This document shows positions 6,842 to 34,089 of a stretch of DNA of 64,000 nucleotides, piece after piece; positions within the stretch are counted from its first letter, which is position 1; the number at the start of each line of letters is the position of its first letter. This stretch comes from an uncultured Oscillospiraceae bacterium. Lineage in GTDB: Bacteria; Bacillota; Clostridia; Oscillospirales; Ruminococcaceae. The translations under genes and the position numbers were made by a program. The notes under the pieces are model-generated. The model searched no databases. It was not told where the DNA came from and worked only from the letters and a program-made list of their open reading frames with translations. The stretch is taken from NCBI GenBank assembly GCA_964369445.1, contig CAYJFU010000001.1, positions 3,409-67,408 of the forward strand, given 5' to 3'.

Positions 6842-8164
6842 ATGTCAAGCAGTGACCAAAAATTTCATTCCGTGCGCCTTGACCGCGATAAATGTTGCGG
6901 ATGCACCAATTGTGTAAAGCGATGTCCAACCGAGGCGATAAGGGTGCGTGACGGTAAGGCGCGGATTATAGAGGACAGGTGTATCGACTGCGGCGAGTGC
7001 ATACGCGTGTGCAAACAGCACGCAAAACTGCCGGTTGTCGACCAGTTGTCGCAACTAGAGGCTTACAAGTATAAAATCGCCCTGCCGGCACCGGCACTTT
7101 TCGGGCAGTTTAATAACCTCGAAAGTGTTTCGACGGTGCTGTACGGACTACTGAAAATGGGGTTTGATGACATTTTCGAGGTGGCAAGGGCCGCAGAGTG
7201 CGTCAGTACATACACACGCTCGGAGCAGTTTTTCGACACCCTCACAAAGCCTATAATCAGCTCGGCATGTCCGGCGGTCGTGCGTTTAATTCGCGTGCGT
7301 TACCCCGAACTACTTGAAAACGTGCTTGCGCTCAACTCACCGATGGAGGTGGCGGCGCGCGCGGCGAGAGCCGAGGCGATGCAACAGCATGGACTTCGCT
7401 CCGAGGACATCGGCATATGCTTTATTTCCCCATGTGCGGCAAAGATGACAGCGACAAAGTCACCGCTTGGCACCGATTACTCCGCCGTTGACCTTGTTGT
7501 CGGCATAAGGGACGTCTATCCACTACTCATTCAAGCGATGAGCAAGCAGGATGATGCGGAACTGTACTCACAAGCAGGGCGCATAGGTCTGAGCTGGGGT
7601 AGCAGCGGCGGCGAGGCGGCGGCACTGTTGCGCAACAATTACCTTGCGGCGGACGGCATCGAAAACGTTATAAACGTGCTGGACAATCTGGAGGACGAAA
7701 AGCTTGCCGGACTTGATTTTGTCGAGCTCAATGCCTGTTGCGGCGGCTGTACCGGCGGCGTGCTAACCGTTGCAAACCCTTACATGAGCAACACCAATTT
7801 GAAAAGTTTAACCCAATACATGCCGGTGATGGGTCACGCTGTGTTGCAATGTCCCGACGAGGTTATAAGGTACGACAAGGAGCTTACACACCTGCCGGTG
7901 CTACAGCTCAACTCCGACAGGCGCACGGCACACGCAATGATGCAACAACTGCGCGATATAGAGGCACACCTGTATGGCATGGATTGCGGTGCATGCGGCG
8001 CACCGTCTTGCAAGGCGCTCGCTGAGGACATAGTGCGCGGCTTTGCCACCGAGGAATTTTGCATGTACAAGATGAAAGACAGGGTGCGCTCGGCGGCACA
8101 AAAGCTGTCGGAACTGTCCGAGATGTTCCCTCAGTTGAAGGAAACCGGCGAGTGGGAGGGGTAA
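6842..8164 (+). CDS. [FeFe]-hydrogenase-like protein with modified H-cluster motifs (putative sensory hydrogenase, HydS-like)
   Basis: 440 aa with an N-terminal 2x[4Fe-4S] domain (CCGCTNCVKRCP, CIDCGECIRVC). The Fe_hyd_lg_C-like core carries SSACP (vs TSCCP), SPCAAKMTA (vs MPCxxKxxE) and ELNACCGGCTGG (vs ExMACxxGCxxGGGQP). The C-terminus has a CGACGAPSC...C motif. Confidence 0.75.
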   Translation: MSSSDQKFHSVRLDRDKCCGCTNCVKRCPTEAIRVRDGKARIIEDRCIDCGECIRVCKQHAKLPVVDQLSQLEAYKYKIALPAPALFGQFNNLESVSTVLYGLLKMGFDDIFEVARAAECVSTYTRSEQFFDTLTKPIISSACPAVVRLIRVRYPELLENVLALNSPMEVAARAARAEAMQQHGLRSEDIGICFISPCAAKMTATKSPLGTDYSAVDLVVGIRDVYPLLIQAMSKQDDAELYSQAGRIGLSWGSSGGEAAALLRNNYLAADGIENVINVLDNLEDEKLAGLDFVELNACCGGCTGGVLTVANPYMSNTNLKSLTQYMPVMGHAVLQCPDEVIRYDKELTHLPVLQLNSDRRTAHAMMQQLRDIEAHLYGMDCGACGAPSCKALAEDIVRGFATEEFCMYKMKDRVRSAAQKLSELSEMFPQLKETGEWEG

Positions 8165-8174
8165 TCACACTCGG

Positions 8175-8202
8175 TTGACAAGTTATTATGTTTTGTGATA
8201 TT
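8175..8202 (+). promoter_or_regulatory. Candidate SigA-type promoter of the hicB/hicA cassette
   Basis: TTGACA (8175-8180), a 16-nt spacer ending in TGt, then GATATT (8197-8202), about 33 nt upstream of the 8235 start. Confidence 0.45.
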
Positions 8203-8234: not shown

Positions 8235-8453
8235 ATGGACTTAACAATCAATATGCTATGGGACAACGAGGCTTGTGTATGGGTAGCCACAAGCGACGAC
8301 ATCCCCGGACTTGTGCTTGAGATGGGATCTTTTGACGGTTTGGTTGAAAGGTTGCGATATGCAATACCCGAATTATTGGAGTTAAACAGTAGCAAATGCG
8401 GTTTTTGTGACCTAAATATTGTCACTAACCGCCACGTTCGGGTAGAAATGTAA
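8235..8453 (+). CDS. DUF1902 / HicB-like antitoxin-family protein
   Basis: 72 aa. WDNEACVWVATSDDIPGLVLEMGSFDGLVERLRYAIPELLELN resembles DUF1902 (HicB N-terminal fold). Its stop overlaps the start of the hicA remnant (TAATG). Confidence 0.55.
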   Translation: MDLTINMLWDNEACVWVATSDDIPGLVLEMGSFDGLVERLRYAIPELLELNSSKCGFCDLNIVTNRHVRVEM

Positions 8454-8790
8454 TGGCAGAATATGAAAAAAAGGTGCGCAAACTGTTATTGCAGAATAAT
8501 TGCTCTTTTGTAAGGCGCGGAATTGGTACAGTCCTATTTCTCGACGACATATATAGTCATTCAACTTTAAAAACGACATGAGATTGCCGAGCAGAAATTT
8601 CGCCTATCAAGGCGGAGGATTGAGTAATACTAAAGTATTGCGATTGACGACAACGCAGATAGACGGGATTTCTGCCGGGAAGATGTGGTGTTTTTCAAGT
8701 TGAAGGACTATAACTGTTGATACTCGCATAAAATCGCGTCACACGGCAAATGCAATATTAAAGCAATGTGGCATAAACTTTAAATTTTAA
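8453..8790 (+). pseudogene. hicA: HicA-family toxin gene remnant, interrupted by a MITE (8554-8710) and with an internal frame disruption
   Basis: The 5' part reads MAEYEKKVRKLLLQNNCSFVRRG. NWYSPISRRHI follows in another frame up to the element. Directly after the element and one TA, the frame continues TVDTRIKSRHTANAILKQCGINFKF*, a HicA-like C-terminus. Confidence 0.6.
8554..8710 (+). mobile_element. MITE-like element, family A, short form (copy A2), inserted in hicA
   Basis: Termini are TAGTCATTCAACTTTAAAAAC...GTTTTTCAAGTTGAAGGACTA, and the arms form an imperfect inverted repeat of roughly 65 bp. TA lies on both sides (8552-8553 and 8711-8712). Removing the element plus one TA restores the hicA frame. 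Confidence 0.8.
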
Positions 8791-8805: not shown

Positions 8806-9141
8806 ATGACAGTACAGCAACTTATCGACCACTGTAAATTTGATATAATCTGTGACGGTGACGGACTGGACAGCGCTATAACCCCCGACATCTACTGCTG
8901 TGACCTTTTGAGCTACGCTATGGTGCGCGCGCCACAGGACGGTGTGTGGGTAACCGTTATGGGTAACCGCAACGTCGTGGCGGTGGCATCGCTCACCGAT
9001 ACAGCATGCGTCATCATCGCCGACGGCAGTGTGCCGGACGAGGACGCGCTGAGCGCCGCGCGAGAACAGGGCGTCGTACTGCTCAAAAGCGGACTGCCGG
9101 TGTTTGAGACGGCAAAGCTTGTCGAGCAAGCACTGACATGA
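8806..9141 (+). CDS. DRTGG-domain protein (second copy)
   Basis: 111 aa. VTVMGNRNVVAVASLTDTACVIIADGSVPDEDALSAAREQGVVLL is DRTGG-like. RBS aaggag. It overlaps the start of the downstream PHP gene. Confidence 0.6.
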   Translation: MTVQQLIDHCKFDIICDGDGLDSAITPDIYCCDLLSYAMVRAPQDGVWVTVMGNRNVVAVASLTDTACVIIADGSVPDEDALSAAREQGVVLLKSGLPVFETAKLVEQALT

Positions 9142-9847
9142 GTTGTTTTTATGACCTACATATCCACACGGCACTGTCACCGTGCGGCGACGACGACATG
9201 ACCCCCAACAACATCGTCAACATGGCGCTGTTGTGTGAGTTGGATGTCATCGCCGTCACCGACCACAACTCCACCGCCAACTGCGAGGCGGTTGTAAACG
9301 CAGCGCAAGGTACCGGTCTTACCGTGCTGTGTGGCATGGAGCTGTGCACCTCCGAGGAGATACATGTCGTCTGCCTTTTGCCGGACGTCGACGCGGCGAG
9401 ATATTTCGGCAACTATGTAAAAAGCCGCAGTCTGCCCGTAAAAAACCGCAGTGACATATACGGGCGGCAACTGCTGATGGACGCGCAGGACAACATCGTC
9501 GGTGAGGAGCAGACGCTACTGCTGACCGCCGCCGACATCTCCGTCACAAACCTGCACCACATATTATACCACTACGGTGGTGTGGCTGTGCCGGCGCACA
9601 TCGAGCGCGAGAGTTACGGTATGTTGTCGGTGCTGGGCACAGTGCCACAGGACTGTTTTTCGGCGCGGTGGAGGTGAAACGTTACGAGAATTTTATTGCG
9701 CGCCCTACCTCAACCGATGTAAAACAGCGGTACAAAATCATCACGAGCAGTGATGCCCACAACCTTGCCTCTATTAACGAGGCGCAAAACACCCTGCCTG
9801 TGGGCGCTGATTTTAAAGATATACACGCATATTTAAGTGAGATTTAA
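9138..9847 (+). pseudogene. PHP-domain (polymerase/histidinol phosphatase-like) metal-dependent phosphoesterase with an apparent 1-nt frameshift near 9653-9660
   Basis: The N-terminus has FYDLHIHTALSPCGDDDMTP...VTDHNS. The ORF stops at 9677, but the -1 frame continues GAVEVKRYENFIARPTSTDVKQRYKIITSSDAHNLASINEAQN... to 9847. The total length of 710 nt is 3n+2, and the break falls at a T5 run. Confidence 0.7.
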
Positions 9848-29509: not shown

Positions 29510-29632
29510 CTTAGTATCCACCACATCTTTCCGGCAGAAATTCCGCCTATCTTCGCCCGTCTCAATCGCAATACATACAGCATGTTTCGATTTTGCCATC
29601 GGCAAAAATCAGGTTCTTGCTCTAAAGTAGTA
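29499..29632 (-). mobile_element. Family A element, partial copy (A5), abutting and overlapping the ltaE start
   Basis: The minus strand reads ...gatttttgccgatggcaaaatcgaaaca...tgcgattgagacgggcgaagataggcggaatttctgccggaaagatgtggtggatactaagATGAATGAGTA. The last 13 nt align with the family 3' TIR ...gTTGAATGACTA. Confidence 0.55.
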
Positions 29633-33930: not shown

Positions 33931-34089
33931 TAGTTGTTCGACTTAAAAAAACGACACAAGATTTCCATGCGGAAATTTCGCCTGTCAACGCGTAAAATTG
34001 AGTGATGCTTTGTGCATCGCGATTGACGCTGGCGAAGATAGACGTTATCTCTACCCGGAAGGTGTTGTGGGTTTCATGTTGAATGACTA
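33931..34089 (+). mobile_element. MITE-like element, family A, short form (A6)
   Basis: TAGTTGTTCGACTTAAAAAAACGAC...gaaatttcgcctgtcaacgcg...gatgctttgtgcatc...gcgattgacgct...GGGTTTCATGTTGAATGACTA. TA flanks lie at 33929-33930 and 34090-34091, and the element is 32 nt upstream of hisH. Confidence 0.75.

What the first reader, a model, noticed from the sequence alone, without database searches (positions are those of the whole stretch)
8235..8790. A HicB/HicA cassette sits inside the hydrogenase-sensor operon, and its toxin gene is killed by a MITE insertion plus an internal lesion
A DUF1902/HicB-like ORF (8235-8453) is followed by an overlapping ORF (TAATG) that starts MAEYEKKVRKLLLQNNCSFVRRG. 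The sequence NWYSPISRRHI then appears in a different frame and runs straight into the MITE terminus (cat ata|TAGTC...). Immediately after the element and its TA, the same frame continues TVDTRIKSRHTANAILKQCGINFKF*, which looks like the ...LKQxGI/L C-terminus of HicA toxins. The toxin gene therefore shows a clean insertion event with a reconstructable empty site, which is direct evidence that family A has been mobile. The frame break between VRRG and NWYSP lies where I recall HicA-type proteins carrying a G-x-H catalytic segment, so this would be a second inactivating lesion. The antitoxin-like gene and its promoter (TTGACA-16-TGtGATATT) look intact, leaving an orphan antitoxin. The whole cassette also splits a gene cluster (DRTGG-kinase-HydS-like / DRTGG-PHP) that I believe is normally contiguous.
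Basis: partly seen in the sequence, partly recalled or inferred. Interest (0 to 1): 0.6.

Follow-up and report, generated by a model that had tools for sequence, protein, structure and literature searches.

The report
Dead hicA toxin, orphan hicB antitoxin
A small toxin-antitoxin gene pair picked up from elsewhere sits inside a hydrogen-sensing operon of an uncultured Clostridia bacterium; its toxin gene has been killed twice (a 16-base deletion and a mobile mini-element), which is ordinary genome decay but shows cleanly that the mini-element family has moved.

Summary

- **hicB:** 8235-8453 encodes a 72-aa DUF1902 protein (Pfam E=1.7e-21).
- **hicA:** it starts at 8453, overlapping the hicB stop by one base, and is a pseudogene with two independent lesions.
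  - A single 16-nt deletion relative to intact homologues (junction about 8522/8523) removes K-G-D-H-D-I, including the invariant catalytic-type His, and shifts the frame.
  - A 157-nt MITE with a TA duplication (8554-8712) follows. Joining its flanks restores the conserved ...RHITVDT... frame.
- **Family:** read through, the remnant is 75-88% identical to 64-65-aa proteins that pass the Pfam HicA threshold and model as the HicA fold.
- **Context:** in 22 of 25 relatives with a HydS-like match, DRTGG2 follows directly (exact gap -4 to +66 nt in nine measured). None carries hicAB there. The cassette is 40% GC against 55-58% in the flanks.
- **MITE family:** 27 full-length copies in this genome, present in 6 of 8 sister species. 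No IS630-type transposase was found.

This is ordinary toxin-first TA decay. The scan has reported a similar case on other DNA (e1-1084903).

The parts
6842..8164 (+). HydS-like [FeFe]-hydrogenase paralogue (440 aa), the gene upstream of the cassette
   Evidence: Pfam Fe_hyd_lg_C E=1.9e-31, plus FeS and Fer4 domains. Orthologues in 25 of 40 relatives.
8175..8202 (+). Promoter-like site TTGACA-16-GATATT with an upstream TG, 33 nt before hicB
   Evidence: Consensus scan, 10 of 12 matches. Not conserved in homologous cassettes. Function is inferred only.
8235..8453 (+). hicB: an open 72-aa DUF1902-only antitoxin gene. It is the only DUF1902 gene in this genome, and no intact hicA is present.
   Evidence: Pfam DUF1902 E=1.7e-21. 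PDB 1WV8 (TTHA1013) E=1.7e-11. Single DUF1902 hit and no PF07927 hit in the own genome. 62 of 76 DUF1902 loci elsewhere have a HicA-like match just downstream.
8453..8521 (+). hicA remnant, N-terminal 23 codons (helix 1 and strand 1), in the original frame
   Evidence: Identical or near-identical to intact HicA homologues, residues 1-23.
8519..8526 (+). Junction of the 16-nt deletion (GGAA|TTGG, between about 8522 and 8523). It removes codons K24-I29, including the invariant His, and shifts the frame by -1.
   Evidence: One 16-nt gap in the DNA alignment to the intact gene in L031. The protein alignment lacks K-G-D-H-D-I. H27 is invariant in 44 intact homologues.
8521..8553 (+). hicA remnant, middle 11 codons (NWYSPISRRHI), -1 frame
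8554..8710 (.). 157-nt MITE, termini TAGTC...GACTA, with imperfect terminal inverted repeats of about 22 nt and an internal inverted repeat. It folds as a long hairpin.
   Evidence: Inverted repeats. 27 full-length copies in the genome. 91% identical to the family consensus. RNA fold -62.8 kcal/mol, z=-8.8. No Rfam family.
8711..8712 (.). Right copy of the duplicated TA target. The left copy is 8552-8553.
   Evidence: Base count at the empty site against the intact homologue. Most family copies are flanked by ta...ta.
8713..8790 (+). hicA remnant, C-terminal 25 codons plus stop (strand 3 and helix 2, ...SRHTANAILKQCGINFKF*)
8806..9141 (+). DRTGG2 gene. Its AAGGAG ribosome-binding site starts 3 nt after the hicA stop.
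   Evidence: Pfam DRTGG E=6.3e-07. It follows HydS-like at -4 to +66 nt in nine relatives measured exactly.

Best explanation
A horizontally acquired two-gene type II toxin-antitoxin cassette lodged in the short or overlapping junction between the HydS-like gene and the DRTGG2-PHP genes of a hydrogenase-associated signalling operon. The cassette is hicB (DUF1902-only antitoxin, 72 aa) followed by hicA (64-aa RNase toxin with a dsRBD-like fold).

The toxin gene was then inactivated twice, and either lesion alone is sufficient.
- A 16-nt deletion removes the strand1-strand2 turn and the invariant His of the G-D-H motif, and shifts the frame.
- A 157-nt non-autonomous transposable element (MITE) inserted at a TA, duplicating it. 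It places a TAG directly after residue 39 and cuts off strand 3 and helix 2.

Both lesions look recent. The three hicA fragments carry no further stops and keep 38 of 40 conserved residues.

hicB remains open with a promoter-like site and is now an orphan. Its openness is most simply explained by lack of time to decay, not by demonstrated selection.

Shown: the gene identities, both lesions, the TA duplication, the multi-copy mobile family, and the derived position in the operon. Inferred: horizontal origin (from GC content and absence in relatives), recency, order of events, promoter activity, and loss of toxicity.
For: - **Identity of hicB.** Pfam DUF1902 E=1.7e-21; PDB 1WV8 E=1.7e-11.
- **Identity of hicA.** The read-through remnant finds 571 proteins, best E=5.9e-27, nearly all carrying PF07927. 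Intact homologues score 26.7-38.2 bits against a cut-off of 27, with three of four above it; the remnant scores 15.1. A model of homologue P0001 has pLDDT 92.8 and topology H-E-E-E-H. Its top PDB matches are HicA chains 6G26_E/F (TM 0.69-0.73), 1WHZ and 4P78_C.
- **Lesions.** There is a single 16-nt gap and a gap-free empty site against the intact gene in L031. K-G-D-H-D-I is missing. H27 is invariant in 44 homologues. A single conserved His is essential for HicA RNase activity (PMC6159526).
- **MITE family.** 27 full-length copies with TA flanks. It is present in 6 of 8 sister species and in 0 of 40 other genera sampled. None of the other 26 full-length copies was shown to interrupt a gene.
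- **Pairing.** The same 72-aa plus 64-aa architecture recurs, with the genes overlapping by one base or abutting. It lies next to phage-type integrases or stands alone. 62 of 76 DUF1902 loci have a HicA-like match downstream. The DUF1902-hicA juxtaposition is noted in PMC10865869.
- **Derived position.** The order DRTGG1-kinase-HydS-DRTGG2-PHP is conserved in 24 of 25 relatives, and none has hicAB there. Exact gaps are -4 to +66 nt, against 641 nt here. GC is 0.40-0.42 in the cassette against 0.55-0.58 in the flanks.
- **Orphan status.** The own genome has no other PF07927 hit and only one DUF1902 hit.
- **Recency.** The hicA remnant departs at only 2 of 40 conserved columns, and both variants also occur in intact homologues.
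Against: - The genome is a 91%-complete, 120-contig MAG. The lesions therefore rest on one assembly.
- No same-species sequence exists in the collections searched: the next-best HicB is 69% identical and the next-best HydS is 69%. There is therefore no orthologous empty site, no population data and no way to order the two lesions.
- The remnant alone does not reach Pfam's HicA threshold.
- hicB departs at 5 of 35 conserved columns, against 0-2 in 16 Bacillota homologues, so it may itself be drifting.
- No transposase that could move the MITE was found.
- An intact hicA could hide in the unassembled 9% of the genome.
Confidence: 0.9

Rival explanations
1. Assembly artefact. The 16-nt gap and/or the MITE at this position are mis-assemblies of a metagenome bin, such as a repeat-induced chimera, and the real hicA is intact.
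For: The genome is a fragmented MAG of 120 contigs. MITE copies are repeats that can mislead assemblers. The nearby PHP gene has a one-base frameshift in a T5 run. Reads could not be checked.
Against: The insertion has a precise TA duplication and restores the frame exactly when the flanks are joined, which a chimera would not produce. The closest other copy in this genome is only 92% identical, so this copy is unique. A 16-nt loss is not a homopolymer error. 325 homopolymers of 5 or more bases lie inside intact long open frames of the window.
Confidence: 0.04
2. The orphan hicB is kept by selection. It could act as an anti-addiction or immunity gene that neutralises HicA brought in by prophages or integrative elements. 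Alternatively, its promoter may now drive DRTGG2-PHP.
For: hicB is full length with a promoter-like site. Intact homologous cassettes sit beside phage-type integrases. No terminator-like site lies on the + strand between hicB and DRTGG2.
Against: The lesions look recent, so an open hicB needs no selection to explain it. hicB carries 5 replacements at conserved columns. It has no DNA-binding domain. There are no expression or population data.
Confidence: 0.15
3. The cassette is ancestral to the operon and was lost in all the other lineages examined.
For: Two sister species also have an extra gene at this junction, so the site tolerates additional content.
Against: hicAB is absent from all 25 relatives with the operon, across 10 families. 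Several relatives have overlapping ATGA stop-start coupling at the junction. Cassette GC is 15 points below the flanks. Homologous cassettes occur in unrelated contexts and phyla. The genes at this junction in G001 and G005 are unrelated to hicAB.
Confidence: 0.02

Closest known systems
HicAB type II toxin-antitoxin systems (E. coli HicAB; Burkholderia pseudomallei HicAB, PDB 6G26; Yersinia pestis HicA3B3, PDB 4P78; Streptococcus pneumoniae HicBA)
   Same: The toxin is small (about 60 aa) with helix-strand-strand-strand-helix topology and a single essential His after strand 1. The genes are adjacent, overlapping by one base or abutting. The intact homologues here match Pfam HicA_toxin and model onto 6G26 and 4P78 (PMC6159526).
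   Different: The gene order is antitoxin first. The antitoxin is only a 72-aa DUF1902 domain, without the RHH or HTH DNA-binding domain of canonical HicB. The motif is G-D-H rather than G-S-H. In this window the toxin is a pseudogene.
DUF1902 / TTHA1013 of Thermus thermophilus (PDB 1WV8); DUF1902 domains in HicB noted by Gerdes 2024 (PMC10865869)
   Same: The window's HicB aligns to 1WV8 over residues 3-52 with E=1.7e-11. The juxtaposition of DUF1902 genes with hicA reported in that paper is reproduced here in 62 of 76 loci.
   Different: This copy has lost its partner toxin. It shows 5 replacements at otherwise conserved positions.
TA-duplicating bacterial MITEs: Correia/NEMIS elements of Neisseria, RUP of Streptococcus pneumoniae (attributed to IS630-Spn1), and other IS630/Tc1-mariner-derived MITEs (from general knowledge)
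   Same: It is about 100-160 nt with terminal inverted repeats and a TA target duplication. It occurs in tens of copies per genome, mostly intergenic, with strong hairpin potential.
   Different: There is no sequence similarity to any Rfam family, phage or plasmid record. No IS630-type DDE_3 transposase was found in this genome or in 8 sister MAGs. The family is restricted to one genus among those sampled.
Earlier scan finding e1-1084903: dead hicAB remnant inside a pur operon of an Omnitrophota MAG
   Same: A TA pair is lodged between genes of an operon, the toxin is interrupted by a small mobile repeat element, and the case was judged ordinary decay.
   Different: It is a different phylum and a different element. 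In that case the antitoxin is also frameshifted; here it is still open.

Membership tests
HicA toxin (Pfam PF07927) | Significant match to the HicA_toxin profile | tested here: inconclusive
   The window's read-through remnant scores 15.1 bits (E=0.025), below the 27-bit cut-off, although it aligns over profile positions 2-58. Its 75-88% identical intact homologues score 26.7-38.2 bits, three of four above the cut-off. Descent from a HicA gene is therefore secure, but the remnant itself fails.
HicA toxin (Pfam PF07927) | dsRBD-like alpha-beta-beta-beta-alpha fold | tested here: met
   Tested on intact homologue P0001. The AlphaFold model has pLDDT 92.8 with elements H3-14, E18-22, E27-32, E37-42, H48-58. 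The top Foldseek PDB matches are HicA chains 6G26_E/F (TM 0.69-0.73), 1WHZ and 4P78_C; E-values are weak (0.09-0.4) because the protein is short. The window copy lacks the strand1-strand2 turn and is cut before strand 3.
HicA toxin (Pfam PF07927) | Conserved catalytic His in the G-x-H segment | tested here: not met
   The segment is deleted in the window. H27 is invariant in 44 intact homologues. The His is essential in S. pneumoniae HicA (PMC6159526). The window copy is therefore a pseudogene, not a functional member.
HicA toxin (Pfam PF07927) | Encoded next to a cognate HicB-type antitoxin gene | tested here: met
   hicB and hicA overlap by one base (TAATG). The same architecture is seen in L060-L069.
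HicA toxin (Pfam PF07927) | RNase activity or growth arrest on expression | not testable with these tools
   Requires expression in a laboratory strain.
HicB antitoxin, DUF1902 type (Pfam PF08972) | Match to DUF1902 / the HicB N-domain fold | tested here: met
   E=1.7e-21, 76.6 bits against a cut-off of 22. PDB 1WV8 E=1.7e-11.
HicB antitoxin, DUF1902 type (Pfam PF08972) | Regular pairing with a hicA gene | tested here: met
   62 of 76 DUF1902 loci from genome contigs have a HicA-like match directly downstream. Also noted in PMC10865869.
HicB antitoxin, canonical two-domain type | C-terminal RHH or HTH DNA-binding domain | tested here: not met
   The protein is 72 aa. The only Pfam hit is DUF1902 at residues 3-56, and 16 residues remain.
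MITE (non-autonomous DNA transposon) | Terminal inverted repeats, small size, no coding capacity | tested here: met
   157 nt. Arms 8547-8574 / 8690-8717 are 86% complementary. Consensus terminus TAGTCATTCAACTTGAAAAAC.
MITE (non-autonomous DNA transposon) | Target-site duplication and a demonstrable empty site | tested here: met
   TA lies on both sides. Joining the flanks aligns without a gap to an intact hicA and restores the frame. Most of the 27 copies have ta...ta flanks. The empty site comes from a homologous gene in another organism, not from an orthologous locus.
MITE (non-autonomous DNA transposon) | Multi-copy dispersed family | tested here: met
   27 full-length copies plus fragments in 2.15 Mb. 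5-38 matches in each of 6 sister species.
IS630/Tc1-mariner-derived MITE | A cognate DDE_3 transposase with matching ends in the genome or its relatives | tested here: not met
   No PF13358 hit in the own genome or in 8 sister MAGs. Long TIR pairs enclose ordinary genes. All these genomes are incomplete MAGs, so absence is not proven.

The most novel reading that the evidence does not exclude
The disarmed cassette may not be mere debris. The orphan DUF1902 HicB could be retained as trans-acting immunity against HicA toxins brought in by the prophage-like elements that carry the intact homologues. Its promoter, followed by the MITE hairpin, may now control the distal half (DRTGG2-PHP) of the hydrogenase-sensor operon independently of HydS. 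MITE insertion would then be the selected disarming step.
Probability: 0.12. Interest if true: 0.45.

Novelty: new member of a known kind. Interest (0 to 1): 0.25.

Why it matters
- **Mobility of the MITE family.** The locus gives a textbook-clean, base-resolved insertion event for a so far undescribed, genus-restricted family: TA duplication, a 157-nt element, and exact frame restoration. That shows the family has transposed. It also gives a defined substrate (the terminal sequences) for finding the unknown transposase.
- **Toxin-first decay.** It adds one more case of toxin-first decay of a DUF1902-type HicBA module. The three further decayed partners seen in passing suggest that orphan DUF1902 genes commonly arise this way.
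- **Effect on the hydrogenase-sensor operon.** A normally overlapping or tightly spaced HydS-DRTGG2 junction is now separated by 641 nt that carry a promoter-like site and a -63 kcal/mol hairpin. Anyone using this genome to infer operon regulation should know this.

None of this changes current understanding of TA systems or MITEs.

Tried and rejected
- **Same-species variants with an intact or empty locus.**
  - Exact-protein look-ups for HicB, DRTGG2 and the kinase found nothing.
  - Homology searches gave no HicB above 69% and no HydS-like protein above 69% identity.
  - The genome-contig scan gave HicB relatives of at most about 70% identity over partial matches and about 65% over near-full length.
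  - Without such variants the order and age of the lesions cannot be resolved.
- **Parent transposase of the MITE.**
  - There is no DDE_3/IS630 hit in the own genome or in the genus.
  - TIR pairs 1.7-3.2 kb apart enclose ordinary genes such as a MATE-like transporter and clpP-clpX.
  - There is no similarity in plasmid or phage records.
  - There is no Rfam family; the only hit is a chance plant miRNA at E=0.71.
- **HicA in solved structures.** A sequence profile of the HicA subfamily against PDB sequences found only spurious RecA repeats. The HicA relation needed Pfam and a fold search instead.
- **Relaxed selection on hicB.** The window's HicB is about 1 sd below the HicB-versus-HicA identity trend and has 5 conserved-column departures. 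This is suggestive, not decisive.
- **Phage carriage.** Only a 53%-identical hit in Salmonella phage SEN22 was found.
- **Ancestral cassette.** Considered and rejected; see the rival explanations.

Full report
**Observation**

- An ORF at 8235-8453 encodes 72 aa. It matches Pfam DUF1902 with E=1.7e-21, 76.6 bits against a cut-off of 22. It also matches the solved DUF1902 protein TTHA1013 (PDB 1WV8) with E=1.7e-11.
- Its stop overlaps by one base (TAATG) an ATG at 8453 that opens MAEYEKKVRKLLLQNNCSFVRRG (8453-8521).
- The -1 frame then reads NWYSPISRRHI (8521-8553) and meets TAG at 8554.
- After 159 nt, the same frame resumes at 8713 as TVDTRIKSRHTANAILKQCGINFKF and stops at 8788-8790.
- A TTGACA-16-GATATT site with an upstream TG lies at 8175-8202. 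This is a consensus match only.

**Identity of the broken gene**

HicA is a bacterial toxin-antitoxin toxin, so I read the three fragments through for searching.
- The 59-residue read-through alone gives only a sub-threshold Pfam HicA_toxin hit: E=0.025, 15.1 bits, although it spans profile positions 2-58.
- It finds 571 proteins in the 5.8-billion-protein collection. The best has E=5.9e-27, and aligned identity is 75-88%. All but two of the 120 listed are 64-65 aa, and nearly all carry PF07927.
- Four of these intact homologues score 26.7-38.2 bits; three exceed the 27-bit cut-off.
- An AlphaFold model of the closest one (P0001, built on a 44-sequence alignment) has pLDDT 92.8 and topology helix 3-14, strands 18-22, 27-32 and 37-42, helix 48-58.
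- Its four best PDB matches are HicA structures: B. pseudomallei 6G26 chains E and F (TM 0.69-0.73), T. thermophilus 1WHZ, and Y. pestis HicA3 4P78_C. Foldseek E-values are weak, as expected for 64 residues.

The ancestral gene was therefore a HicA toxin.

**Lesion 1: a 16-nt deletion**

The protein alignment shows that the window lacks exactly K-G-D-H-D-I between FVRRG and WYSP. At the DNA level there is one 16-nt gap against the intact gene in L031 (GGAA[16 nt]TTGG). The junction is at about 8522/8523. The deletion removes the strand1-strand2 turn and the first residue of strand 2, and shifts the frame by -1. The lost His (H27) is invariant in 44 intact homologues. HicA toxins have a single conserved His that is essential for RNase activity, shown by H36A in S. 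pneumoniae HicA (PMC6159526). That H27 is the equivalent residue rests on its position in the G-x-H motif after strand 1 and on the Pfam alignment. It was not shown by a residue-level structural superposition.

**Lesion 2: a MITE insertion**

- The insert has imperfect terminal inverted repeats: arms 8547-8574 and 8690-8717 are 86% complementary. It also has an internal inverted repeat.
- As RNA it folds into one long hairpin of -62.8 kcal/mol, z=-8.8.
- BLAST finds 53 matches in the 2.15-Mb genome. My own extraction gives 27 full-length copies with termini TAGTYRTTCAACTTGAAAAAC...GACTA, mostly flanked ta|...|ta.
- Joining the two flanks gives CAT ATA ACT GTT (H-I-T-V). This aligns gap-free with CAC GTA ACA GTC in the intact homologue and with the conserved RH[IV]TVDT of the family.
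- Counting TA dinucleotides at the site fixes the element at 157 nt (8554-8710) with a 2-nt TA duplication (8552-8553 and 8711-8712). A 4-nt duplication would leave two extra bases.

This is a genuine transposition footprint.

**The MITE family**

- The hicA copy is among the four copies closest to the family consensus at 91%. No two copies in this genome are more than about 92% alike.
- The hicA fragments show almost no extra damage. I therefore read the 9% divergence as diversity among source copies, not as time since insertion.
- The family occurs in 6 of 8 sister species, at up to 92% identity. It was not found in 40 other genera of the family.
- No IS630-type DDE_3 transposase was found in this genome or in the eight sister MAGs. 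Widely spaced TIR pairs enclose ordinary genes.
- Plasmid, phage and Rfam searches were empty. The mobilising enzyme is unknown.
- After in-silico excision, none of the other 26 full-length copies was shown to interrupt a gene. Most have under 30 open codons on one side of the site, and the exceptions (C70, C35, C52) were not resolved. This fits purifying selection against genic insertions except in a dispensable or harmful gene.

**Is hicB-hicA a real pair?**

Intact homologues show the same architecture: a 72-aa DUF1902 gene followed by a 64-aa hicA that overlaps it by one base or abuts it. They lie at the edge of integrase-bearing elements (L060-L065) or as a bare two-gene cassette between unrelated genes (L066-L069). 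Among 76 DUF1902 loci fetched from species-representative genomes of many phyla, 62 have a HicA-like match immediately downstream. This agrees with the remark in PMC10865869 that many DUF1902 genes adjoin hicA. Unlike canonical HicB, this antitoxin has no room for a DNA-binding domain.

**Position in the operon**

- The order DRTGG1 - HATPase kinase - HydS-like - DRTGG2 - PHP is found in 24 of 25 relatives that have the HydS-like gene, across ten families.
- In nine relatives measured exactly, the HydS stop and the DRTGG2 start are -4 to +66 nt apart. Three have an overlapping ATGA.
- Here they are 641 nt apart, and the interval is entirely the cassette plus the MITE.
- None of the relatives has hicAB there.
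- Cassette GC is 0.40-0.42, against 0.55-0.58 on both sides.

Insertion of a foreign cassette is the parsimonious reading. One qualification: sister species G001 and G005 carry an unrelated 241-aa or 202-aa gene with a hydrophobic N-terminus at the same junction. The junction evidently tolerates inserts in this genus.

**State of the antitoxin**

The own genome has no other PF07927 match and only this one DUF1902 gene, so hicB is an orphan in this 91%-complete assembly. It is full length, but it departs from the consensus at 5 of 35 well-conserved columns (Y3L, A35G, F65I, S67T, E71V). Sixteen Bacillota homologues depart at 0-2 columns. The hicA remnant departs at only 2 of 40 columns, and both variants also occur in intact genes. 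Because the toxin fragments are so well preserved, the lesions are probably recent. An open hicB therefore needs no selective explanation. Retention as an anti-addiction gene remains possible but is unsupported.

Decayed hicA next to an open DUF1902 gene recurs elsewhere. In L078 hicA is truncated right after residue G23. L076 and L091 are further cases. The scan has earlier notes of a comparable dead hicAB in a pur operon (e1-1084903) and of an orphan DUF1902 gene (e1-4250814).

**Limits**

- No other genome or contig of this species exists in the collections searched. The assembly cannot be cross-checked, and the order of the two lesions cannot be determined.
- An artefact is unlikely. The TA duplication and frame restoration are exact, and this MITE copy is unique in sequence. 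A 16-nt loss is not a homopolymer slip, and 325 homopolymers of 5 or more bases sit inside intact long frames of the window.

**Verdict**

This is a recently disarmed DUF1902-type HicBA module, a new instance of a well-known kind of decay. Its added value is that it documents the mobility and the TA target of an undescribed, genus-restricted MITE family.

Noticed in passing
window 9138-9847 (T5 run at 9656-9660): The PHP gene downstream of DRTGG2 is split into a 179-aa and a 59-aa piece by a one-base frameshift in a T5 run. Relatives encode 237-239 aa, and their ...DCFFGAVEVK... continues in the other frame here. It is either a real second lesion in the distal half of the operon or a single assembly error.
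   Followed up: partly
L034:2871-3596 (G001) and L035:2861-3469 (G005): Two sister species carry an unrelated 241-aa or 202-aa gene, with a hydrophobic N-terminus and a Ser/Thr-rich linker, at exactly the HydS/DRTGG2 junction where this genome carries hicBA. The junction seems to be a recurrent landing site in this genus.
   Followed up: partly
L078:3066-3137; L076:3200-3290; L091:3207-3250: Other genomes show an open DUF1902 gene followed by a decayed hicA. L078 stops right after ...FQRHG, the same point as the deletion here. L076 is frameshifted. L091 keeps only about 14 codons.
   Followed up: partly
window 33931-34089; 29519-29574; TIR-like sites near 703 and 62282: Further full, partial or terminal copies of the same MITE family lie in the window. 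The whole genome holds 99 TIR-like sites, which suggests several related MITE subfamilies sharing one terminus.
   Followed up: partly
G000 C70:2412-2569 (outside the window): Removing this MITE copy upstream of clpP-clpX, plus 2 nt, fuses a 300+ aa open frame on one side with the clpP frame. The upstream gene's stop codon may be supplied by the element or by its TA.
   Followed up: no
window 8235-8453: The window's HicB is unusually isolated. The next-best protein among 5.8 billion is 69% identical, whereas the dead HicA is up to 88% identical to intact proteins in alignment A1.
   Followed up: partly
L057/L058 (G023 C7:23515-24640): The HydS-like gene of relative G023 is split into two matches with an in-frame TAG, possibly another decaying copy of the sensor gene.
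   Followed up: no
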